Shown: positions 2,796 to 8,457 of the stretch, piece after piece
Layout: each line of letters opens with the position of its first letter
Position numbering within the stretch: position 1 is the first letter of the stretch
Virus record (IMG/VR): IMGVR_UViG_2667527789_000017
Strand: one strand, 5' to 3'
Length of the DNA: 9,399 nt
DNA from: a virus
Taxonomy: Duplodnaviria; Heunggongvirae; Uroviricota; Caudoviricetes
Program-made: the position numbers and the translations under genes
Notes under the pieces: generated by a model
What the model saw: the letters and a program-made list of their open reading frames with translations, nothing else
What the model was told of the DNA's origin: nothing
The model's database searches: none

Positions 2796-3677
2796 TTACA
2801 TAGATGTTTCGTTTAATTCTTCCCGACAAACGCTGTAAACGTCGGTGGCTTTTGCCAGCAGTTCGTCATCATCTGAAAGTTTTTGTGCAATGTATTTGTA
2901 AGCCTTATCCAGTTCGGAGACAGTGCTGTAATTCATCGCTGCGCTGGTAAAGGCCATCAGCATTTCTTCTGGATCACGGCTATCCGCTTTACGCGTTTGC
3001 TCATCATGCTTTTTCGCTGGTTTAGCGTTGATCAGACTGTTCATTCCCGCAGCAGTAGTCGTTTGCGGAGTAATGTCTCGCTCAACACGCGGTGCCGTTT
3101 CCTGTAATTCGTCAGGGGTGTAAACACCGAGAAGCACATCAGGAGCGTGCAGGCGAGCCCATCGTTTCGTGCAAAGATAGGCAAGCTGCTGGCGCGGATC
3201 CTGTTCCCACAATGGAGAGTTACGCACTCCGGCTTGCGCCATACTGATGGTAAGCTCACGGGGTTCTGCTTCTCCTTTAAGAACTGCTGACACAGTTACC
3301 GTCAGATTCGGTGATTTATCTGTTTTGCCGTTAACATTCGACCAGTCACCGCTCCAGCGATAATTCAGGCGTGTCGCTAGCAGGCTGGAAGAGGATACGA
3401 CCGCGTTTACCAACTGTGCTTCGTAGCCTAACGTTCCGTTTACCACATGCGTTTTCTGCGCCACGGCGAAAGGGTTCATTCCCCACTGTGCCGCCTGCAT
3501 GGTCACCGCCAGACAATCGGCAGGTTTGCCTTCAAGATGTTTCGGTACAGTCGCTTTGCTTTGTGACATCAACTCCGCGAAACGCACCAGTTGATTCATG
3601 CCCTCCGGGCTGAAGATTGCCGCAGCAGTACCTACAGTTGCGCCTGGTTGTGATGTGATTGCGATATCATTGCTCAT
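2796..3677 (-). CDS. bet: Bet/Redbeta-family single-strand annealing protein (RecT superfamily)
   Basis: 293-aa ORF; local similarity by eye to lambda Bet (window NPFAVAQK... / RQQLAYLCTKRWARLHAPDVLLGVYTPDELQE / RVERDITPQ versus lambda NPWTKEIYAF... / MLRHKAMIQCARLAFGFAGIYDKDEAER / ERQPERDITP). ATG at 3677 overlaps the exonuclease stop (ATGA). Confidence 0.85.
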   Translation of the reverse strand: MSNDIAITSQPGATVGTAAAIFSPEGMNQLVRFAELMSQSKATVPKHLEGKPADCLAVTMQAAQWGMNPFAVAQKTHVVNGTLGYEAQLVNAVVSSSSLLATRLNYRWSGDWSNVNGKTDKSPNLTVTVSAVLKGEAEPRELTISMAQAGVRNSPLWEQDPRQQLAYLCTKRWARLHAPDVLLGVYTPDELQETAPRVERDITPQTTTAAGMNSLINAKPAKKHDEQTRKADSRDPEEMLMAFTSAAMNYSTVSELDKAYKYIAQKLSDDDELLAKATDVYSVCREELNETSM

Positions 3678-4495
3678 ACGTACATATCCTGTTTACGTGC
3701 CCAGTCAGGGCGTTTAATAATTTCCACTCCGCCCCACTCATCGTTGATGCGGCATTCGTGATAGGTATTCAGATCCCGGCGGAACAGAGCGTGCCCGGCA
3801 TCGACATCCGGCGCATCCAGCTCGAACACGCGTACCGGATACCGACCACAATCAATGCTTTCGCTCACGGCAAGAAAGAAAAAACCATGCGGCTGACCAG
3901 TAACCCTCATTGCGCCTTCGCGGTACATTGCGTCCTGCACGTGGTAGCGGAATTCCTCGATGTGGCGTGCAAAACGGTCCATATCTGCAACCTTTTTCAC
4001 GTCGACGATCACGTTGTGCTCGTTCAGCCATTTGTCTGGACGAATGCGGCACAACTCACCAGTATCTTCATCGTTCCAGTACATTGATGCTTCGCAGTAA
4101 CCAGGTGCTTCCAGCATCCAGCGTGCCGCCGGGTGAGCCATTGCGCTATCACGCATCATCTCCAGTTTCCGCCACTGCTCGGCATCAAGTACCGTAATCC
4201 CCATATCCGCCACATCACGAAGAAATGCCTCTTCGTCAGCTTTACCTTGTTTCGTCCGACGATCGAATTTCGGTGAAACAATGAAGCGTTTGTCGAACTC
4301 TCCAGGCTCCAGAAGCAGACAGTGCAATGCGGTTCCCATATCCAGTGCAGACTTTTTCTCTTCGTCTTCTGGTGCTGCCTGAACCCATTTAAGAAGCGCC
4401 GGATTCTTGGCAACCATGTCCAGTTGCGACTTACTCACGCCGTCACCGGCGTGGTAGTCTTCGTTGCTGATGTCGAAATAAATTCCCGGTTTCAT
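3674..4495 (-). CDS. RecE-like PD-(D/E)XK exonuclease (exonuclease VIII C-terminal-domain type)
   Basis: 273-aa ORF beginning MKPGIYFDISNEDYHAGDGVSKSQL, the typical N-terminal signature of the short RecE-like / PDDEXK phage exonucleases; candidate catalytic residues in RIRPD ... IVDVKK (D ... D-x-K). Directly upstream of and translationally coupled to the annealing-protein gene. Confidence 0.8.
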   Translation of the reverse strand: MKPGIYFDISNEDYHAGDGVSKSQLDMVAKNPALLKWVQAAPEDEEKKSALDMGTALHCLLLEPGEFDKRFIVSPKFDRRTKQGKADEEAFLRDVADMGITVLDAEQWRKLEMMRDSAMAHPAARWMLEAPGYCEASMYWNDEDTGELCRIRPDKWLNEHNVIVDVKKVADMDRFARHIEEFRYHVQDAMYREGAMRVTGQPHGFFFLAVSESIDCGRYPVRVFELDAPDVDAGHALFRRDLNTYHECRINDEWGGVEIIKRPDWARKQDMYV

Positions 4496-4793: not shown

Positions 4794-4946
4794 TCAGCCC
4801 TCCCATATCTCGTTATCGTTGGCCACATCGCGAGCTTCTTTGCTGACGAAAGCCCACTTAATGCCTTCCTGTAAGGTGCGGAACTTCCAGCTCATGAATC
4901 CGCATGCAGTAACGCAGTACCAACCGTTGATGATTTTCCACTGCAT
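4794..4946 (-). CDS. Candidate small ORF (50 aa, MQWKIINGWYCVTACGFMSWKFRTLQEGIKWAFVSKEARDVANDNEIWEG), first gene of the leftward operon
   Basis: Not in the supplied ORF track (below its size cutoff). ATG at 4946 is preceded by GAGGT about 8 nt upstream; stop TGA at 4796-4794 lies 2 nt before the next gene's ATG at 4791. Trp/Cys-rich hydrophobic N-terminal half. Sits immediately downstream of operator site 4966-4980. Confidence 0.3.
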   Translation of the reverse strand: MQWKIINGWYCVTACGFMSWKFRTLQEGIKWAFVSKEARDVANDNEIWEG

Positions 4947-4965
4947 AACTTGTTACCTCGGCTTG

Positions 4966-4980
4966 TTACCTTTGAGGTAA
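4966..4980. promoter_or_regulatory. Operator-like palindrome TTACCTTTGAGGTAA (member of TTACC-N5-GGTAA family)
   Basis: Perfect 5-bp inverted half-sites with 5-bp spacer, directly read from sequence; just downstream of the pL-like promoter elements; an orphan TTACC half-site lies at 4953-4957. Confidence 0.7.
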
Positions 4981-4982
4981 TG

Positions 4983-5008
4983 ATTATGCGTATTTGGTTT
5001 GATGTCAA
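4983..5008 (-). promoter_or_regulatory. Putative leftward early promoter (pL-like)
   Basis: On the minus strand a consensus -35 TTGACA (+ strand 5003-5008) is followed by an A/T-rich -10 region CATAATCAT (+ strand 4980-4988). Exact -10 register is ambiguous (best hexamer CATAAT gives a 14-bp spacer). Flanked by operator sites at 4966-4980 and 5028-5042. Confidence 0.35.
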
Positions 5009-5027
5009 TAGATATGAGTTAAAAAAA

Positions 5028-5042
5028 TTACCTGCAAGGTAA
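5028..5042. promoter_or_regulatory. Operator-like palindrome TTACCTGCAAGGTAA
   Basis: Perfect TTACC-N5-GGTAA; centre 62 bp from the centre of site 4966-4980, upstream of the pL-like -35. Confidence 0.7.
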
Positions 5043-5055
5043 TTGTATGGGCAAT

Positions 5056-5078
5056 AAAAAAGCCGCCATGAGGCGGCT
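5056..5078 (-). terminator. Rho-independent terminator of the repressor gene
   Basis: Minus-strand reading: stem AGCCGCC, loop TCAT, stem GGCGGCT, followed by TTTTTTATT. Stem is + strand 5061-5067 paired with 5072-5078, and the U-run corresponds to the + strand A-run 5056-5060. Begins about 22 bp downstream of the repressor stop at 5100. Confidence 0.8.
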
Positions 5079-5099
5079 TACTTGCTGAAAACTATAGTT

Positions 5100-5684
5100 T
5101 TATTGTTTGCTTTTTTCGTTCTGGTTGATGACAAATTCAATGTAACTTTCGATCTTTGCTTTCTCGGTTTCGGGTAACAATGCGTAGCGCGAGCGGTCAT
5201 AGTTGATAGTCGCGGGGTCGTGCGGGTGAATCAGTAATTCATATCCGTGACGCCCGAATGCGGATGCAACATTCTCCAGGGTGGAAATGGAAACGCTGAC
5301 CTCATTGTTTAACAGGCGGCTGATTGTCACCTGGGCGACGCCGGATGCGCGGTGAAGTTTTCCCTGCGTTGAAAGGTCGCGGCTTTCGCTCATCCAGCGT
5401 TCCAGGTTGTGAGCCGCCAGCTGACCAATGTCGCTTGGTCCGACAGGCTGAAAACCTTCCTGAGAAAGCGAGCGATCGATATCAAGCCAGTTACGGGGTT
5501 TATTGGCGGCAGCTTCAATTTTTCGCGCAACCTGGTCGCCGATAACCTTCTTGCCAAGAGCCCAGCGGTTTACCAGATTTGCCTGAGTTCCAAGTTTTTC
5601 TGCCATCCGCGTCTGAACACCATTGAATTCACGGTCGATCAAGTCGTTGAGATTTTGCCTGCGGACGTCCTGGATACTTTTCAT
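5100..5684 (-). CDS. Prophage repressor (CI-like role) with two tandem Cro/C1-type HTH domains and no S24 peptidase domain
   Basis: 194-aa ORF divergent from a Cro-like gene across an operator-rich intergenic region. Two HTH_XRE-like segments: GVQTRMAEKLGTQANLVNRWALGKK and ASGVAQVTISRLLNNEVSVSISTLENVASAFG. C-terminus shows no LexA/CI-type autopeptidase signature. No SD within normal distance of the ATG at 5684, compatible with a leaderless or short-leader mRNA as for lambda cI from pRM. Confidence 0.75.
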   Translation of the reverse strand: MKSIQDVRRQNLNDLIDREFNGVQTRMAEKLGTQANLVNRWALGKKVIGDQVARKIEAAANKPRNWLDIDRSLSQEGFQPVGPSDIGQLAAHNLERWMSESRDLSTQGKLHRASGVAQVTISRLLNNEVSVSISTLENVASAFGRHGYELLIHPHDPATINYDRSRYALLPETEKAKIESYIEFVINQNEKSKQ

Positions 5685-5739
5685 TTTCTGGAAAATCGCC
5701 TCATATATGAATCAGTAGATGATTCAATTTAAAGCAATA

Positions 5740-5754
5740 TTACCCAACAGGTAA
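5740..5754. promoter_or_regulatory. Operator-like palindrome TTACCCAACAGGTAA (immunity region site 1)
   Basis: Perfect TTACC-N5-GGTAA in the divergent repressor/Cro intergenic region. Confidence 0.7.
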
Positions 5755-5756
5755 AT

Positions 5757-5771
5757 GCACCCCATAGGTAA
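5757..5771. promoter_or_regulatory. Operator-like site GCACCCCATAGGTAA (immunity region site 2, one half-site variant)
   Basis: Right half GGTAA perfect, left half GCACC instead of TTACC; centre 17 bp from site 1. Confidence 0.55.
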
Positions 5772-5777
5772 CTATCC

Positions 5778-5813
5778 TTGATTTTTGTTACCTTATGGGT
5801 GAATATTTATTAT
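5778..5813 (+). promoter_or_regulatory. Putative rightward promoter for the Cro-like gene (pR-like)
   Basis: Candidate -35 TTGTTA (5785-5790), 17-bp spacer, -10 TATTAT (5808-5813). Alternative -35 TTGATT (5778-5783) with -10 GAATAT (5801-5806). Operator site 3 overlaps the -35/spacer. Confidence 0.4.
5788..5802. promoter_or_regulatory. Operator-like site TTACCTTATGGGTGA (immunity region site 3, one half-site variant)
   Basis: Left half TTACC perfect, right half GGTGA (reverse complement TCACC, same variant class as GCACC). Lies in the spacer of the putative rightward promoter. Confidence 0.55.
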
Positions 5814-5838
5814 CTGAAATAAATATCAGGCAATAGCT

Positions 5839-6069
5839 ATGAGCGATAACGGACATTTCGATTTCAAAAAGCACTGGCTTGCACTTACTCCGGATGAGCG
5901 TGAAGCCTTCGCACAGGAAGCCGGAACGACGAGTCACTATATCCAGACTCACTTAACAGGTAAGCGCAAAATGCCAGGTAAGGTATTGATGAATGGGCTT
6001 TTTAAAGCCTGTAAAACAAGACAATGGCTGAGCTCAAAAGCAGAACTGGCATACTTCTTCTACTCATGA
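5839..6069 (+). CDS. Cro-like small HTH DNA-binding protein
   Basis: 76-aa ORF divergent from the repressor. AFAQEAGTTSHYIQTHLTGKRKMPGKVLMNGLFKAC resembles the Cro/YdaS-type HTH layout (compare lambda Cro [29 protein letters not shown]). Followed by a strong terminator. Confidence 0.7.
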   Translation: MSDNGHFDFKKHWLALTPDEREAFAQEAGTTSHYIQTHLTGKRKMPGKVLMNGLFKACKTRQWLSSKAELAYFFYS

Positions 6070-6090
6070 TATCCAGCCACAACCCTCTGT

Positions 6091-6114
6091 AGACCGCCAT
6101 CCGGCGGTCTTTTC
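6091..6114 (+). terminator. Rho-independent terminator after the Cro-like gene (tR1-like position)
   Basis: Stem AGACCGCC (6091-6098), loop ATCC, stem GGCGGTCT (6103-6110), then TTTT (6111-6114); 22 bp after the Cro-like stop. Confidence 0.8.
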
Positions 6115-6124
6115 ATATCTATTC

Positions 6125-6139
6125 GCACCTCAAAGGTAA
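6125..6139. promoter_or_regulatory. Operator-like site GCACCTCAAAGGTAA immediately downstream of the Cro-gene terminator
   Basis: Same family (GCACC variant left half, perfect GGTAA right half); lies 11 bp after the terminator T-run and about 80 bp before the next gene. Confidence 0.5.
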
Positions 6140-6217
6140 CAAAAAACCAAATCTGGTTGATCAAATTTTCCAATTGTGCAAAATAGCCAATATCAATAAC
6201 AAAAAGGGGCAGAAAAA

Positions 6218-6430
6218 TTGAAGATAGTAACCAGAATGGAGGCCGCAAAAGCCGGGTTAAATCGCTATTTCACAGGAAAGCGGTGCCGTCACGGCCATCT
6301 CTCTGAAAGGTATGTTCTGAACGGAACATGTGTTGAATGTGCAATGAATAGCGCCAACCGCCATCGTAATGAATTTGCTTGTGCACTAAAGAGTGCAAGA
6401 GGGGAAACCTATGGCAAGCAGCTGGATTAA
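6218..6430 (+). CDS. Small protein with putative zinc-binding motif (C-x-H-x-H ... C-x2-C), function unknown
   Basis: 70-aa ORF from TTG at 6218 preceded by AAAGGGG 8 nt upstream; an internal ATG at 6236 has no SD. Motif GKRCRHGHLSERYVLNGTCVEC. Occupies the position between cro and the replication genes where lambda has cII, but shows no similarity to CII. 3' end overlaps the next gene by 20 nt. Confidence 0.5.
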   Translation: MKIVTRMEAAKAGLNRYFTGKRCRHGHLSERYVLNGTCVECAMNSANRHRNEFACALKSARGETYGKQLD

Positions 6431-7247
6431 GGTTGAAGTTATCACTCCTGATAAACCTGAAATTTTTCAGATAGCAGAAATTCTGGGTATTGATCCAGAT
6501 GCTGTTCTTGGAAAGCTGGTTCGTATATGGGCATGGGCTGACCAGCAAACAATAGACGGTAACGCTGGCAGCGTTACAAAAGGAGTACTTGATAGACTCG
6601 CTTTTATTACAGGATTTGCTGACGCCCTCATTAGCGTCGGATGGCTTGCTTATCATGACGGTAAACTAATTCTTCCAAACTTTGAGCGACACAATGGAGA
6701 ATCATCGAAAAAACGTGCACTTACGAATAGAAGAGTGGCAGAGCATCGAAAACGAGTAACGCAAAAAGTAACGCCAACAGCGTTACAAAAGGAGTTACCA
6801 GAGGAAGAGGAAGAGGAAGAGGAAGATATATATAAAACCCCACACATAGCGCACGTGCGCGAGGGTGCTCCGACCAGTGAAGCGAACGGTATGCCGTTGC
6901 AGGTGGCTGAACCTGAATTTCTGGATGGCCTGAGTGAACCCATCGGGAAATTTCCGATGACCGATGGTTGGCATCCGTCGCCGGATTTTCGACGGCGTGC
7001 TGTGCTGTGGGGAACGGCCCTGCCGGAACCGGAATTTACACCTGCTGAACTTGCTGCATTCCGGGATTACTGGATGGCTGAGGGCAAAGTGTTCACGCAG
7101 GTTCAGTGGGAACAAAAATTCGCCAGGCACGTAAATCATATCAGGGGAAAATCAAAAAACGCCGGGAAAAGCGATGAGCTTGACTGGAATAACACTGACT
7201 GGATAGAAGGGGTGTGGGATGAAATCAACTCCAGAACTTCTCAATGA
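6411..7247 (+). CDS. Replication initiation protein: phage replisome-organiser-like N-terminal region fused to a DnaT-like C-terminal domain
   Basis: ATG at 6411 preceded by AAGAGGGG with 6-nt spacing; the ORF-track start at 6393 has no SD. C-terminal IGKFPMTDGWHPSPDFRRRAVLWGTALPEPEFTPAELAAFRDYWMAEGKVFTQVQWEQKFARH aligns by eye with E. coli DnaT [61 protein letters not shown]. N-terminal SWIKVEVITPDKPEIFQIAEILGIDPDAVLGKLVRIWAWADQ resembles phage replisome-organiser N-domains. Central poly-Glu linker. Confidence 0.85.
   Translation: MASSWIKVEVITPDKPEIFQIAEILGIDPDAVLGKLVRIWAWADQQTIDGNAGSVTKGVLDRLAFITGFADALISVGWLAYHDGKLILPNFERHNGESSKKRALTNRRVAEHRKRVTQKVTPTALQKELPEEEEEEEEDIYKTPHIAHVREGAPTSEANGMPLQVAEPEFLDGLSEPIGKFPMTDGWHPSPDFRRRAVLWGTALPEPEFTPAELAAFRDYWMAEGKVFTQVQWEQKFARHVNHIRGKSKNAGKSDELDWNNTDWIEGVWDEINSRTSQ
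6559..6577. repeat. Inverted repeat GTAACGC-TGGCA-GCGTTAC followed by AAAAGGAGT (copy 1 of intragenic repeat)
   Basis: Directly read; 7-bp arms with 5-bp spacer, inside the replication-initiator gene. Confidence 0.7.
6756..6786. repeat. GTAACGC half-site (6756-6762) plus inverted repeat GTAACGC-CAACA-GCGTTAC (6768-6786) followed by AAAAGGAGT (copy 2)
   Basis: Shares GTAACGC ... CAGCGTTACAAAAGGAGT with copy 1 but sits in a different codon phase of the same gene (copy 1 starts at codon position 2, copy 2 at position 1), so the repeat is conserved at the DNA level rather than the protein level. Confidence 0.7.
6801..6824 (+). repeat. Hexanucleotide tandem repeat (GAGGAA)x4 encoding a poly-Glu linker
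   Basis: gaggaagaggaagaggaagaggaa read directly; translates as EEEEEEEE in the initiator gene and is followed by AT-rich GATATATATATAAAA. Confidence 0.9.
6849..6860. repeat. Perfect 12-bp palindrome GCGCACGTGCGC
   Basis: Read directly; lies just downstream of the AT-rich stretch inside the initiator gene. Confidence 0.7.
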
Positions 7248-7995
7248 GTACGATCGCTTACGTGAGCATGGTGTTGATGTGCATGAAGAGCGGCGTGGCA
7301 GCAATGGCAAAAAGGAGCAGGTTGCTAGAATTTTCAATGAACTATTTGTCCAGTTACAGGCTGCATTTCCTGCAAGCGTTTCGACCATAAGGGAGCAGAA
7401 CAAACTTAATGAATTCCGTAAGCAATGGATGCTTGCGTTTCTGGAGAATGGGATCACTACAATGGAACAGGTTAACGCTGGTATGCGCCACGCTCGCGCC
7501 AGTGAGTCTCCGTTCTGGCCGTCGCCAGGGCAATTCATCAAGTGGTGTAAAGACAGCAAGATGGTTCTTGGCGTCACCATTGACGATGTGATGGCGGAGT
7601 TTCACCGGTACAGCAAGGAAAAAAGTTTATATCCTGGTGGTCCCGAAAGATTCCCGTGGTGGCATCCGGTTATGTACTGGGTCGTATGTGATACCCGCCG
7701 TGCAATGTATCAGCGCCAGCTTAGCGAGATTGAGGTTGAGAAACACGCGCGCAGGCTGCTCGATGATTGGGCGAAAAAGGTGGCTTCCGGACAGCAGATA
7801 CCCGATCCGGTGATCAGCATACAGGCAAAGCCAGAACCCATGAGTACGCCTCCGGACACAGGGAGAGACGTTTACCATCCACCAGGGCGAAGTTTCGGGT
7901 GTATGCCTAACGCCGCCACCCTGGGGGGAATAACACCGGCGCAGTGGCTGATGGAGGAATGCAGGCGGGGAAAGGCGTCAGGATTTATCAAGTAA
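7219..7995 (+). CDS. P: Replication protein P homologue (lambda P-like helicase-loader)
   Basis: 258-aa ORF; VARIFNELFVQLQAAFPASVSTIREQNKLNEFRKQWMLAFLENGITTMEQVNAGMRHARASESPFWPSPGQFIKWC is near-colinear with lambda P VAQIINGVFSQLLATFPASLANRDQNEVNEIRRQWVLAFRENGITTMEQVNAGMRVARRQNRPFLPSPGQFVAWC. ATG at 7219 preceded by GAAGGGG; overlaps the 3' end of the initiator gene by 29 nt. Confidence 0.9.
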   Translation: MKSTPELLNEYDRLREHGVDVHEERRGSNGKKEQVARIFNELFVQLQAAFPASVSTIREQNKLNEFRKQWMLAFLENGITTMEQVNAGMRHARASESPFWPSPGQFIKWCKDSKMVLGVTIDDVMAEFHRYSKEKSLYPGGPERFPWWHPVMYWVVCDTRRAMYQRQLSEIEVEKHARRLLDDWAKKVASGQQIPDPVISIQAKPEPMSTPPDTGRDVYHPPGRSFGCMPNAATLGGITPAQWLMEECRRGKASGFIK

Positions 7996-8000
7996 TACCA

Positions 8001-8020
8001 GCGCGATAGCGCATTTTTTT
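8001..8020 (+). terminator. Weak candidate intrinsic terminator after the P-like gene
   Basis: Short stem GCGC (8001-8004), loop GATA, stem GCGC (8009-8012), then A and TTTTTTT (8014-8020). Only a 4-bp stem, so low confidence. Confidence 0.3.
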
Positions 8021-8032
8021 ACGCCTCGATAA

Positions 8033-8047
8033 TTACCTGTTGGGTAA
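8033..8047. promoter_or_regulatory. Operator-like palindrome TTACCTGTTGGGTAA
   Basis: Perfect TTACC-N5-GGTAA, upstream of the promoter-like elements that precede the gene at 8113. Confidence 0.7.
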
Positions 8048-8066
8048 TAAAATATTCTAAAATCTA

Positions 8067-8095
8067 TTGATTTAGTGTCTTATGTGGTTTTTAAT
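8067..8095 (+). promoter_or_regulatory. Putative sigma70 promoter for the downstream operon
   Basis: -35 TTGATT (8067-8072), 17-bp spacer, -10 TTTAAT (8090-8095); predicted start site falls inside operator site 8096-8110. Confidence 0.45.
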
Positions 8096-8110
8096 TACCT
8101 TAGAGGTAAA
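8096..8110. promoter_or_regulatory. Operator-like palindrome TTACCTTAGAGGTAA overlapping the transcription start and RBS of the gene at 8113
   Basis: Perfect TTACC-N5-GGTAA; its GAGG doubles as the Shine-Dalgarno sequence 6 nt before ATG 8113; centre 63 bp from the centre of site 8033-8047. Confidence 0.7.
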
Positions 8111-8112
8111 TC

Positions 8113-8457
8113 ATGAGAAAACAGATACAGGCTCTTGGTCGACTCAAAACAGGCCAGATGAACAAAACAGAATCTGCGTATTGCCAGCACCTTGAGCTGC
8201 GTAAACGTGCAGGAGAAATCGTCTGGTATCGATTTGAGGGTATCAAGCTGCGGTTAGCTGACAACACGTTCTATACGCCCGATTTTGCTGTGATGCTCGC
8301 CACCGGCGAGATGGAACTGCACGAAGTGAAAGGTTTCTGGACCGACGACGCCAGGGTGAAAACCAAAGTCGCCGCAGATCAGTATCCGTTCCGAATCATC
8401 GGGGTAACGGTTAAACCAAAGAAAGCAGGTGGTGGCTGGAACATCGAAGAGTTCTGA
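8113..8457 (+). CDS. DUF1064-like phage protein with PD-(D/E)XK nuclease-type motif (putative structure-specific nuclease)
   Basis: 114-aa ORF; FYTPDFAVM ... ELHEVKG gives a D ... E-x-K arrangement typical of PD-(D/E)XK nucleases. Overall pattern recalls the DUF1064 family of small phage proteins, assigned from memory only. Confidence 0.6.
   Translation: MRKQIQALGRLKTGQMNKTESAYCQHLELRKRAGEIVWYRFEGIKLRLADNTFYTPDFAVMLATGEMELHEVKGFWTDDARVKTKVAADQYPFRIIGVTVKPKKAGGGWNIEEF

What the first reader, a model, noticed from the sequence alone, without database searches (positions are those of the whole stretch)
4966..8110. Eight-member family of 15-bp palindromic operator-like sites (TTACC-N5-GGTAA) confined to four intergenic control regions
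Five perfect sites (4966-4980, 5028-5042, 5740-5754, 8033-8047, 8096-8110) and three one-mismatch variants (5757-5771 and 6125-6139 with GCACC, 5788-5802 with GGTGA) occur in 9.4 kb. A perfect 10-bp-specified palindrome is expected about 0.01 times by chance in this length, and none of the sites falls inside a coding region. The spacers all differ, so only the half-sites are conserved, as expected for a dimeric HTH protein. This defines a regulon covering the leftward recombination operon, the repressor/Cro switch, the region after the Cro terminator and a separate operon downstream of the replication genes. I do not recognise the half-site as a LexA box, a DnaA box or a lambda, 434 or P22 operator.
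Basis: seen in the sequence. Interest (0 to 1): 0.65.

Follow-up and report, generated by a model that had tools for sequence, protein, structure and literature searches.

The report
Repressor operator sites of a phiV10-like prophage
The repeated TTACC-N5-GGTAA palindromes are real and are almost certainly the binding sites of the phage's lysogeny repressor, but the identical motif is already annotated as repressor sites in the related phage epsilon15, so this is a correct finding and not a new one.

Summary
There are five perfect TTACC-N5-GGTAA sites against 0.01 expected by chance, plus three degenerate sites, all lying in four intergenic control regions. There are three small corrections. 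The last site is at 8095-8109. The two GCACC sites carry two mismatches, not one. A one-mismatch chance hit inside a gene (6650-6664) was missed.

The window is the early region of an epsilon15/phiV10-type temperate podovirus (genus Uetakevirus). This immunity region is present in 561 of 5,426 complete E. coli genomes. The 194-aa repressor is a full-length homologue of Salmonella phage SPC32H Rep (PDB 5D50). Papers citing that work describe Rep as a tetramer that binds palindromic DNA and is inactivated by an antirepressor.

The same motif occurs 8-11 times in each of six complete relatives, always at promoters. In the epsilon15 GenBank record these exact sites are annotated "protein_bind: repressor".

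Half-sites are invariant while spacers drift. Operator pairs bracket the leftward promoter (PL) and the promoter downstream of the replication genes (here called P4) at a fixed 62 bp in every genome examined.

Verdict: genuine operators of a known repressor family. Direct binding was not tested here. The fixed 62-bp promoter-bracketing module and the genome-wide reach of the regulon are the only parts that may be under-described.

The parts
4966..4980 (.). OL1: perfect operator TTACCTTTGAGGTAA, overlapping the -10/+1 of the leftward promoter PL
   Evidence: Half-sites are invariant in 6 phages (A1).
4980..5008 (-). PL promoter-like site on the minus strand: -35 TTGACA (5008-5003), 17-nt spacer, -10 AATCAT (4985-4980). 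It drives the p39/p38/RecE-like/RecT operon.
   Evidence: It matches 10 of 12 consensus positions. The CTATTGACA block is invariant across relatives (A1). The transcription start is inferred, not mapped.
5028..5042 (.). OL2: perfect operator TTACCTGCAAGGTAA, 62 bp centre to centre from OL1 and about -62 relative to PL
   Evidence: The 62-bp spacing is conserved in all genomes examined.
5060..5079 (-). Intrinsic terminator downstream of the repressor gene
   Evidence: The phiV10 record annotates it as a terminator.
5100..5684 (-). Repressor gene (194 aa), a full-length homologue of SPC32H Rep. It has no S24 peptidase domain.
   Evidence: PDB 5D50 E 3.5e-42; Pfam. It is 99.5% identical to ZX5 ORF21, whose overexpression shut down lytic transcription.
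5740..5754 (.). OR3: perfect operator TTACCCAACAGGTAA in the divergent repressor/Cro-like gene control region
   Evidence: invariant half-sites (A2).
5757..5771 (.). OR2: degenerate operator GCACCCCATAGGTAA (two mismatches), 17 bp from OR3
   Evidence: It aligns with a perfect TTACC site in epsilon15 and SPN1S at the same 17-bp offset (A2).
5788..5802 (.). OR1: operator TTACCTTATGGGTGA (one mismatch), lying within the core of the rightward promoter PR
   Evidence: conserved position (A2).
5778..5813 (+). PR promoter-like region, with two candidate readings: TTGATT-18-AATATT, or TTGTTA-17-TATTAT
   Evidence: TTGATTTTT is invariant across relatives (A2). The start site is not mapped.
5839..6069 (+). 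Cro-like 76-aa helix-turn-helix protein (phiV10 p41 homologue), a possible second reader of the OR sites
   Evidence: phrog_35 'transcriptional repressor' E 1e-12. The helix-turn-helix segment EAGTTSHYIQTHLT is invariant in 6 phages (A6).
6091..6118 (+). Intrinsic terminator after the Cro-like gene
   Evidence: annotated in phiV10.
6125..6139 (.). Degenerate operator GCACCTCAAAGGTAA (two mismatches), about -59 from a third rightward promoter-like site
   Evidence: The GGTAA half is invariant. The left half is GTACC in ZX5, HEMP4 and Tyrion and ACACC in epsilon15 and SPN1S (A3).
6157..6184 (+). Promoter-like site TTGATC-16-CAAAAT, upstream of the 70-aa ORF and the replication genes
   Evidence: GGTTGATC and AAAAT are invariant (A3). 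This is a weak match and the assignment is inferred.
8001..8020 (+). Short terminator (GCGC-N4-GCGC followed by a run of T) that ends the replication operon
   Evidence: Annotated in phiV10; invariant in A4.
8033..8047 (.). O4a: perfect operator TTACCTGTTGGGTAA, upstream of the P4 promoter
   Evidence: A4.
8068..8095 (+). P4 promoter-like site TTGATT-16-TTTAAT, lying between the two operators
   Evidence: CTATTGA is invariant and sits at the same offset as in PL. This is my reading. The scan tool instead picked 8026-8053, whose -35 is not conserved.
8095..8109 (.). O4b: perfect operator TTACCTTAGAGGTAA, 62 bp from O4a. It overlaps the ribosome-binding site of the DUF1064 gene (ATG at 8113).

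Best explanation
The sites are the operators of the prophage's lysogeny repressor, the 194-aa protein encoded at 5100-5684 on the minus strand.

Proposed mechanism. The repressor belongs to the SPC32H/epsilon15 Rep family, described as a homotetramer that RecA cannot cleave. Pairs of its N-terminal helix-turn-helix domains would each read one 15-17 bp palindrome, (A)TTACC-N5-GGTAA(T). One tetramer could therefore hold two operators at once.

At PL and at P4 (the promoter downstream of the replication genes), two operators bracket the promoter, at about -62 and +1. They are exactly 62 bp apart, roughly six helical turns, so they face the same side of the DNA. One tetramer could clamp or loop the promoter and exclude RNA polymerase.

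In the repressor/Cro-like gene intergenic region there are three sites. OR1 lies in the PR core. OR2 and OR3 lie toward the repressor gene and would give repression of PR and probably autoregulation.

A weaker single site follows the terminator downstream of the Cro-like gene, ahead of a third rightward promoter-like site.

Induction would not be by repressor cleavage. It would be by a LexA-controlled antirepressor encoded elsewhere in the phage genome.

What is shown here: the sites, their enrichment, their conservation and spacing, the homology of the repressor, and the identical motif annotated as repressor sites in epsilon15. What is inferred: actual binding, the tetramer-bridging geometry, and the transcription start sites.
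For: 1. Enrichment. There are 5 perfect sites against 0.01 expected. In ZX5 there are 14 sites with at most one mismatch against 0.53 expected, all in the 8.6% of the genome that is non-coding. There are no perfect sites in 100 kb of host chromosome. It is the top-ranked palindrome in an unbiased count of the window, ZX5, SPN1S and the SPC32H immunity region.

2. The repressor is a full-length homologue of SPC32H Rep, PDB 5D50, E 3.5e-42. Citing papers say Rep binds palindromic DNA as a tetramer and has an N-terminal DNA-binding domain. It has no S24 peptidase domain.

3. The epsilon15 GenBank record annotates 'protein_bind: repressor' at 7 positions. Every one is a TTACC-N5-GGTAA match, including the PL sites and the site after the replication genes.

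4. Footprinting across 6 phages whose repressors are 43-99% identical shows half-sites invariant while spacers and flanks vary (A1-A4).

5. Spacing is fixed: 62 bp at PL and at P4 in every genome except one Klebsiella phage PL pair at 63 bp, and 17 plus 30-31 bp at OR. PL and P4 are colinear 77-bp modules.

6. Operators overlap promoter core elements.

7. The recognition-helix segment NLVNRW is invariant in all the repressors, matching the invariant half-site (A5).

8. ZX5 ORF21, 99.5% identical to this protein, abolished free phage and cut holin and endolysin transcripts by more than 99.9% when overexpressed.

9. A perfect LexA box lies 54-55 bp from a repressor site beside the antirepressor operon in all six complete relatives.

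10. A Pseudomonas phage cI has a homologous DNA-binding domain (39% identity, E 1e-12) and an unrelated Cro. It has TTACC-N4-GGTAA twice upstream of its gene.
Against: No binding experiment for this phage or this motif could be read. The three primary papers (Kropinski 2007; Kim and Ryu 2013; Kim et al. 2016) are not in the held library. That SPC32H Rep binds exactly this sequence is therefore inferred from GenBank annotation, secondary citations and enrichment.

The Cro-like protein is even more conserved than the repressor (76% against 43% identity between the phage groups) and has an invariant helix-turn-helix. Covariation among these genomes therefore cannot separate the two proteins as the reader of the sites.

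Two of the eight window sites carry two mismatches. No promoter for the repressor gene itself was confidently identified. The tetramer-bridging of 62-bp pairs is a geometric inference only.
Confidence: 0.85

Rival explanations
1. The sites are read mainly or exclusively by the 76-aa Cro-like protein (5839-6069), or by both proteins as in lambda. In that case the motif marks a Cro regulon and not a repressor regulon.
For: The protein matches phrog_35 'transcriptional repressor'. Its helix-turn-helix is invariant in all six phages, mirroring the invariant half-sites. Three of the sites lie directly between its gene and the repressor gene.
Against: The epsilon15 record assigns the sites to the repressor. 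The repressor homologue is reported to bind palindromic DNA. TTACC/GGTAA half-sites persist in Pseudomonas phage PseuP_224, which shares the repressor-type DNA-binding domain but whose Cro shows no detectable similarity to this one. Sites at late-gene, lysis and antirepressor promoters fit a lysogeny repressor better than a Cro. Shared binding at OR is not excluded; I put that at roughly 0.35. The 0.07 below is for Cro as the exclusive reader.
Confidence: 0.07
2. The sites bind a conserved host transcription factor of Enterobacteriaceae and not a phage protein.
For: The motif is identical in phages of Escherichia, Salmonella, Enterobacter and Klebsiella, even though their repressors are only 43% identical.
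Against: There are no perfect sites in 100 kb of E. coli chromosome, against about one per 4 kb in the phages. From my own knowledge I know of no E. coli regulator with a TTACC-N5-GGTAA site. The repressor recognition helix is invariant, which explains the shared motif. The epsilon15 annotation assigns the sites to the phage repressor.
Confidence: 0.03
3. The sites are chance or a by-product of other signals, for example Shine-Dalgarno-like AGGT or weak hairpins, with no protein-binding role.
For: O4b overlaps the ribosome-binding site of the DUF1064 gene. A GAGGTAA half-site-like ribosome-binding sequence precedes the first PL gene.
Against: Shuffles expect 0.01 perfect sites. Both halves are conserved in sites far from any start codon. 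Spacing is conserved and half-sites are invariant across diverged phages. A 5-bp stem with two G-C pairs would be too weak to form a useful hairpin (my inference).
Confidence: 0.01

Closest known systems
Salmonella phage SPC32H Rep/Ant lysogeny switch (Kim and Ryu 2013 J Virol; Kim et al. 2016 PNAS; PDB 5D50 and 5D4Z)
   Same: The repressor is homologous over its full length (E 3.5e-42, about 43% identity). The SPC32H immunity region carries the same TTACC-N5-GGTAA sites at the same places and with the same 62- and 17-bp spacings. Close complete relatives of the window have a LexA box next to the antirepressor operon.
   Different: The repressor sequence has diverged, especially in the linker and C-terminal half (A5). 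The window has two PL operators where the SPC32H/epsilon15 group has three. OR2 is degenerate here but perfect there. The annotated antirepressor in ZX5 (696-bp gene) may be a different protein from the small SPC32H Ant; I did not test this. I could not read the primary papers, so exactly which operators were tested there is unknown to me.
Repressor-binding sites annotated in the Salmonella phage epsilon15 genome (GenBank AY150271.2)
   Same: The motif is identical and the positions are homologous (PL region and the region after the replication genes). All 7 annotated features coincide with TTACC-N5-GGTAA matches.
   Different: The epsilon15 record does not annotate the OR sites, the second P4 site or the site upstream of the lysis genes, although they are present in its sequence. 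The phiV10 and ZX5 records, which are closest to the window, annotate no operators at all.
Lambda/434/P22 CI-Cro operators
   Same: A divergent repressor/Cro pair has three operators between the two genes, further operators sit at PL, and the sites are palindromes with conserved arms and a variable centre.
   Different: The half-site is different. There is no S24 autocleavage domain. The homologue is a tetramer and not a dimer that assembles into octamers. Operators bracket each promoter at a fixed 62 bp, where lambda has adjacent triplets about 24 bp apart. The regulon reaches late-gene promoters directly. The lambda properties are from my own knowledge.
Rco of Bacillus plasmid pLS20 and other tetrameric looping repressors (LacI, GalR)
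   Same: Each is a tetramer with an N-terminal DNA-binding domain and a C-terminal tetramerisation domain. PMC9986798 finds the same tetramerisation fold in SPC32H Rep. Rco has two operators about 75 bp apart flanking promoters.
   Different: Rco recognises multiple direct repeats and uses several tetramers. Here each site is a single palindrome and the pair spacing is 62 bp. Looping by this repressor has not been demonstrated.
Gifsy-type prophage repressors controlled by LexA-regulated antirepressors (Lemire et al. 2011, PMC3121763)
   Same: The induction logic is the same: a non-cleavable repressor is inactivated by an antirepressor under SOS control.
   Different: I did not compare the proteins or operators. 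The resemblance is functional only and rests on my own knowledge plus the title and abstract seen.

Membership tests
Uetakevirus (epsilon15/SPC32H-type) Rep operators | An adjacent repressor gene homologous to SPC32H Rep over its full length | tested here: met
   phmmer against PDB: 5D50_A E 3.5e-42, query residues 1-190 aligned to chain residues 2-197.
Uetakevirus (epsilon15/SPC32H-type) Rep operators | The same palindromic motif as the sites annotated as repressor-binding in epsilon15 | tested here: met
   All 7 epsilon15 'protein_bind repressor' features are TTACC-N5-GGTAA matches. The window has 5 perfect copies.
Uetakevirus (epsilon15/SPC32H-type) Rep operators | The same genomic positions and spacing as in relatives | tested here: met
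   Alignments A1-A4. Spacings of 62 bp at PL and P4 and 17 + 30-31 bp at OR in the window and the six complete genomes.
Uetakevirus (epsilon15/SPC32H-type) Rep operators | Direct, sequence-specific binding by the repressor | not testable with these tools
   This needs gel-shift, footprinting or ChIP. The primary SPC32H papers are not held. Only secondary statements that Rep binds palindromic DNA as a tetramer could be read.
Uetakevirus (epsilon15/SPC32H-type) Rep operators | Induction through a LexA-controlled antirepressor and not through repressor cleavage | tested here: inconclusive
   The repressor has no S24 domain. A LexA box lies beside the antirepressor operon in ZX5, HEMP4 and four other relatives. 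The antirepressor locus is outside the window, so it cannot be checked for this particular prophage.
Lambda-type CI repressor/operator system | A repressor with a C-terminal S24 (LexA-like) autocleavage domain | tested here: not met
   Pfam finds only helix-turn-helix-type families in the 194-aa protein. By contrast, the Pseudomonas PseuP_224 cI with a related DNA-binding domain does have S24.
Lambda-type CI repressor/operator system | A tripartite operator between divergent repressor and cro genes | tested here: met
   Three sites at 5740, 5757 and 5788 lie between the repressor gene and the Cro-like gene. This is a resemblance in layout, not a sign of membership.
LexA (SOS) boxes | CTGT-N8-ACAG consensus | tested here: not met
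   The eight sites do not fit that consensus. True LexA boxes occur elsewhere in the relatives.

The most novel reading that the evidence does not exclude
The conserved 77-bp module (operator, 16 nt, CTATTGA -35 block, 22 nt, operator, with centres exactly 62 bp apart) may be a dedicated promoter clamp. In this reading one repressor tetramer binds both palindromes with its two pairs of DNA-binding domains and encloses the promoter. The module would have been copied to several transcription units. Together with single or 17-18-bp paired sites at the terminase, portal, tail-fibre/antirepressor, lysis and integrase promoters, this would mean one repressor directly silences essentially every transcription unit of these phages, without a lambda-like regulatory cascade. 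A 2023 paper states that the structural mechanism of repression by this protein family has not been extensively characterised, so this architecture may not have been described. I could not read the primary papers to check.
Probability: 0.3. Interest if true: 0.5.

Novelty: already known. Interest (0 to 1): 0.25.

Why it matters
This immunity region is present in about 10% of complete E. coli genomes (561 of 5,426). It also belongs to phiV10-type phages, which I recall being used as O157 typing and reporter phages. A correct operator map is therefore useful for annotation, for engineering these phages and for predicting cross-immunity. Because the half-site is the same across the genus, phages of Escherichia, Salmonella, Enterobacter and Klebsiella may cross-repress one another.

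Scientifically it adds little to what the epsilon15 annotation and the SPC32H repressor work already imply. The exceptions are the strictly conserved 62-bp operator bracketing of promoters and the genome-wide reach of the regulon. Both give concrete, testable predictions for how the tetrameric repressor shuts promoters off.

Tried and rejected
1. I tried to read the three primary papers: Kropinski 2007 (DOI and PMC2698709), Kim and Ryu 2013 (PMC3807360) and Kim et al. 2016 (PMC4983836). None is held. A full-text search for the half-site strings together with operator, repressor and prophage found nothing. The ZX5 paper defines no operators.

2. I scanned viral contigs with the repressor alignment hoping for diverged relatives that would separate the repressor from the Cro-like protein by covariation. 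The 80 loci kept were all 99-100% identical to the query, so they were uninformative.

3. Covariation between repressor or Cro-like protein and the operators across six phages was uninformative. Both recognition helices and the half-sites are all invariant.

4. Moraxella phage Mcat9, whose repressor has a distantly related DNA-binding domain, has only loosely similar TTAYC...GTAA repeats. I did not pursue it.

5. I searched for a promoter for the repressor gene on the minus strand. Only weak candidates scoring 8 of 12 were found, so none is assigned.

6. The scan tool's candidate P4 promoter at 8026-8053 was rejected in favour of the one between the operators. Its -35 is not conserved, whereas CTATTGA between the operators is invariant and colinear with PL.

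7. The 6650-6664 site was rejected as an operator. It lies in a coding region and is absent from near-identical relatives.

8. Hairpin or terminator and ribosome-binding-site explanations were considered and rejected (see the rivals).

Full report
**Observation**

An exact search for TTACCNNNNNGGTAA finds five sites in the 9,399-base window: 4966-4980, 5028-5042, 5740-5754, 8033-8047 and 8095-8109. Dinucleotide-preserving shuffles expect 0.01, and none of 200 shuffles reaches five.

With one mismatch allowed, two more sites appear. The latter is absent from the 97-98% identical phages ZX5 and HEMP4. About 0.18 sites with at most one mismatch are expected by chance, so I treat it as noise.

The two "GCACC" sites (5757-5771 and 6125-6139) are at the stated coordinates but differ from the consensus at two positions, not one. 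Their status as real sites rests on comparison with relatives, described below.

All eight sites are intergenic. An unbiased enumeration of every 5+5 palindrome with gaps of 0-10 bases ranks TTACC-N5-GGTAA first in the window.

**What the window is**

The region is 96-98% identical to Escherichia phages HEMP4, TL-2011b, vB_EcoP_ZX5 and phiV10. It is about 77-80% identical to Enterobacter phage Tyrion and, in parts, to Salmonella phages SPN1S, SPC32H and epsilon15. All the classified relatives belong to the genus Uetakevirus, the epsilon15-like temperate podoviruses.

The annotated phiV10 record gives this gene order: integrase, then a leftward operon (methylase, PerC-like, AlpA-like, RecT and RecE-like, p38, p39), a terminator, the repressor gene (p40), a divergent 76-aa gene (p41), a terminator, p42, a DnaT-like gene, a lambda-P-like gene, a terminator, a DUF1064 gene and further early genes (Pfam and PHROG support).

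The immunity segment occurs in 561 of 5,426 complete E. coli genomes.

**The repressor**

The 194-aa protein aligns over its whole length with the repressor of Salmonella phage SPC32H, PDB 5D50 (E 3.5e-42). Two papers I could read summarise the structural work of Kim et al. 2016:
- Rep has an N-terminal DNA-binding domain, a middle dimerisation domain and a C-terminal tetramerisation domain that also binds the antirepressor Ant.
- It binds palindromic DNA as a tetramer, and the dimer binds DNA only weakly.
- The pairs of DNA-binding domains come from different dimers of the tetramer.
- One of these papers also says the structural mechanism of repression "has not been extensively characterized".

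The Pfam HTH_3 hit at residues 106-147 therefore falls in the dimerisation domain. The DNA-binding helix-turn-helix is the N-terminal one, a weak YdaS-like hit at residues 21-61. There is no S24 peptidase domain.

In phage ZX5 the 99.5% identical protein was overexpressed experimentally. It abolished free phage and lowered holin and endolysin transcripts by more than 99.9%. That paper defines no operators.

**The motif is genus-wide and already annotated**

The same pattern occurs 8-11 times in each of the complete genomes of HEMP4, ZX5, Tyrion, epsilon15, SPN1S and BUCT554. In ZX5 there are 14 sites with at most one mismatch, against 0.53 expected. All 14 lie in the 8.6% of the genome that is not annotated as coding (P about 1e-15). 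Two 50-kb pieces of E. coli chromosome contain no perfect site and five one-mismatch sites, which I calculate to be about the chance level (roughly three expected).

The GenBank record of epsilon15 (AY150271.2) carries seven "protein_bind: repressor / lysogeny" features. Each coincides with a TTACC-N5-GGTAA match, including three in the PL region and one upstream of the gene that follows the replication genes. The record also cites 5D50 as the structural match of its repressor. The motif is thus publicly recorded as the repressor operator of a congener. The records closest to the window (phiV10, ZX5) do not annotate it.

**Comparative footprint**

I aligned each of the four control regions across the window and five diverged relatives, whose repressors are 43-99% identical. 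Both half-sites are invariant while the 5-base spacers and much of the flanking sequence vary (A1-A4).
- The degenerate OR2 site of the window (GCACC) aligns with a perfect TTACC site in epsilon15 and SPN1S.
- The site after the terminator downstream of the Cro-like gene keeps an invariant GGTAA half. Its left half is GTACC in ZX5, HEMP4 and Tyrion (one mismatch).

Pooling 54 distinct perfect sites gives the extended consensus (A/T)A-TTACC-(T)nWn(A)-GGTAA-T(A/T). The core palindrome is effectively 17 bp.

**Architecture**

Spacing is fixed. At PL and at the promoter after the replication genes (which I call P4), two operators lie 62 bp apart centre to centre in the window and in all six complete genomes. 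A Klebsiella phage has 62 bp at P4 and 63 bp at PL.

Read on the transcribed strand, the PL and P4 segments are colinear 77-bp modules: operator, 16 nt, the block CTATTGAnn, 22 nt, operator. The CTATTGA block is invariant across phages. It contains the -35 of the best promoter match, which for PL is TTGACA-17-AATCAT, 10 of 12 positions. This places one operator at about -62 and the other over the -10/+1. At P4 the downstream operator also covers the ribosome-binding site of the DUF1064 gene.

In the divergent repressor/Cro-like gene region there are three sites, 17 and 30-31 bp apart. The rightmost (5788-5802) lies inside the PR core.

After the terminator downstream of the Cro-like gene, a single weak site lies about 59 bp upstream of the inferred start of a third rightward promoter-like element with an invariant TTGATC. 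I could not assign a promoter for the repressor gene itself.

**Mechanism**

The best-supported reading is that these are operators of the repressor. Pairs of N-terminal domains each read one palindrome, and a tetramer can therefore hold two operators.
- 62 bp is about 5.9 helical turns, which puts the paired operators on the same face of the DNA.
- A paper on the tetramerisation fold reports that the two pairs of middle domains in the SPC32H tetramer are about 100 Å apart.
- With the flexible linkers to the DNA-binding domains, bridging two sites about 210 Å apart along straight DNA would need only moderate bending. This step is inference.
- Occupancy of the -10/+1 operator explains repression directly.

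Induction is presumably by an antirepressor. All six complete relatives carry a canonical LexA box (for example CTGTATATTTATACAG) 54-55 bp from a repressor site, in the divergent region between the antirepressor operon and the tail-fibre gene. From memory, this matches the SPC32H circuit described by Kim and Ryu 2013. That locus is outside the window.

**Who reads the sites**

The 76-aa protein is a helix-turn-helix protein (phrog_35). It is more conserved than the repressor, at 76% identity between the two phage groups, and its helix-turn-helix is invariant. The repressor's recognition segment NLVNRW is also invariant. Covariation therefore cannot separate the two proteins.

One outside data point favours the repressor domain. 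Pseudomonas phage PseuP_224 has an S24-type cI whose N-terminal domain is 39% identical to the repressor's (E 1e-12). Its Cro has no detectable similarity to the window's Cro-like protein. Yet the intergenic region upstream of its cI gene contains TTACC-N4-GGTAA twice. Shared binding at OR by the Cro-like protein, as in lambda, remains plausible.

**Regulon beyond the window**

In complete relatives the motif also sits in these places:
- immediately upstream of the small terminase gene, as two sites 18 bp apart;
- upstream of the gp3/portal genes;
- in the tail-fibre/antirepressor divergent region and within the antirepressor operon;
- upstream of the lysis genes in four of the six genomes;
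- about 45 bp upstream of the integrase gene, as a conserved variant (TTACCTTAAAGGTAT) that lies just left of base 1 of the window.

This suggests direct repression of nearly every transcription unit.

**Comparison and novelty**

The system works like other phage repressor/operator switches, and it passes the sequence-level membership tests for the SPC32H/epsilon15 Rep family (homology, motif, position). Binding was not testable here. It is not a lambda-type CI system, because it has no S24 domain and uses a different half-site and layout.

Because the identical motif is already annotated as repressor sites in epsilon15 and the repressor family has been structurally studied, I rate the finding as already known. 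It is a correct piece of reading by the first stage. The fixed 62-bp promoter-bracketing module and the genome-wide regulon may be under-described. I could not check this, because the three primary papers are not in the library and a text search for the motif found nothing.

Noticed in passing
window 8082-8089; also L003 (ZX5) 2470, 16158, 22815; L005 (epsilon15) 2991, 24754; L004 (Tyrion) 4028, 21441: The 8-mer ATGTGGTT recurs just upstream of the -10 or downstream operator in several repressor-controlled promoters (P4, tail fibre, gp3, lysis, antirepressor). It usually lies about 47-59 bp after the upstream operator. It may be an unusual -10-proximal element or the site of a second factor. 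It is unexplained.
   Followed up: partly
L003 (ZX5) 2368-2383; L002 35108; L004 21721; L005 19841; L006 19986; L007 27602: A canonical LexA box (CTGTATATTTATACAG or a close variant) lies 54-55 bp from a repressor site, in the divergent region between the antirepressor operon and the tail-fibre gene. This holds in all six complete relatives and implies SOS-controlled antirepressor induction. The locus is outside the window.
   Followed up: partly
L003 (ZX5) 8026-8040 and the equivalent positions in the other five genomes; just left of window base 1: A conserved variant site, TTACCTTAAAGGTAT (TTACCCTAAAGGTAT in Tyrion and epsilon15), lies about 45 bp upstream of the integrase start in every genome. 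This suggests the integrase gene is also under repressor control.
   Followed up: no
window 4966-5042 (minus strand) and 8033-8109 (plus strand): PL and P4 are gap-free colinear 77-bp modules (operator, 16 nt, CTATTGAnn, 22 nt, operator). They share 22 of 47 inter-operator positions. The P4 control region is conserved even where the downstream gene differs: DUF1064 here, a RuvC-like gene in epsilon15 and Tyrion.
   Followed up: yes
L091 (Pseudomonas phage PseuP_224) 2422-2435 and 2461-2474: TTACC-N4-GGTAA occurs twice upstream of an S24-type cI whose DNA-binding domain is 39% identical to the repressor's. The half-site seems to travel with this type of helix-turn-helix domain, here with a one-base-shorter spacer.
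   Followed up: partly
window 6650-6664: TTATCATGACGGTAA, a one-mismatch match inside the DnaT-like coding sequence. It is not present in ZX5 or HEMP4 and is probably chance.
   Followed up: yes
window 2796-4495: The window has separate overlapping RecT (2796-3677) and RecE-like PDDEXK (3674-4495) reading frames. The phiV10 record annotates a single 'recET fusion' gene at the equivalent place.
   Followed up: no
L004 (Tyrion) 34059-34271: The annotated gene gp39 of Tyrion lies on the strand opposite to PL and overlaps both PL operators. It is probably a spurious gene call.
   Followed up: no
window 6218-6430: A 70-aa reading frame lies downstream of the third promoter-like site. It carries two cysteine-pair motifs (CRHGH ... 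CVEC), which suggests a small zinc-ribbon protein. Its family (phrog_1081) has no known function, and it is conserved as phiV10 p42 and epsilon15 gp40.
   Followed up: no
window 4900-6250: This immunity region is present at 95-99% identity in 561 of 5,426 complete E. coli genomes, almost always once per genome and on the chromosome.
   Followed up: yes
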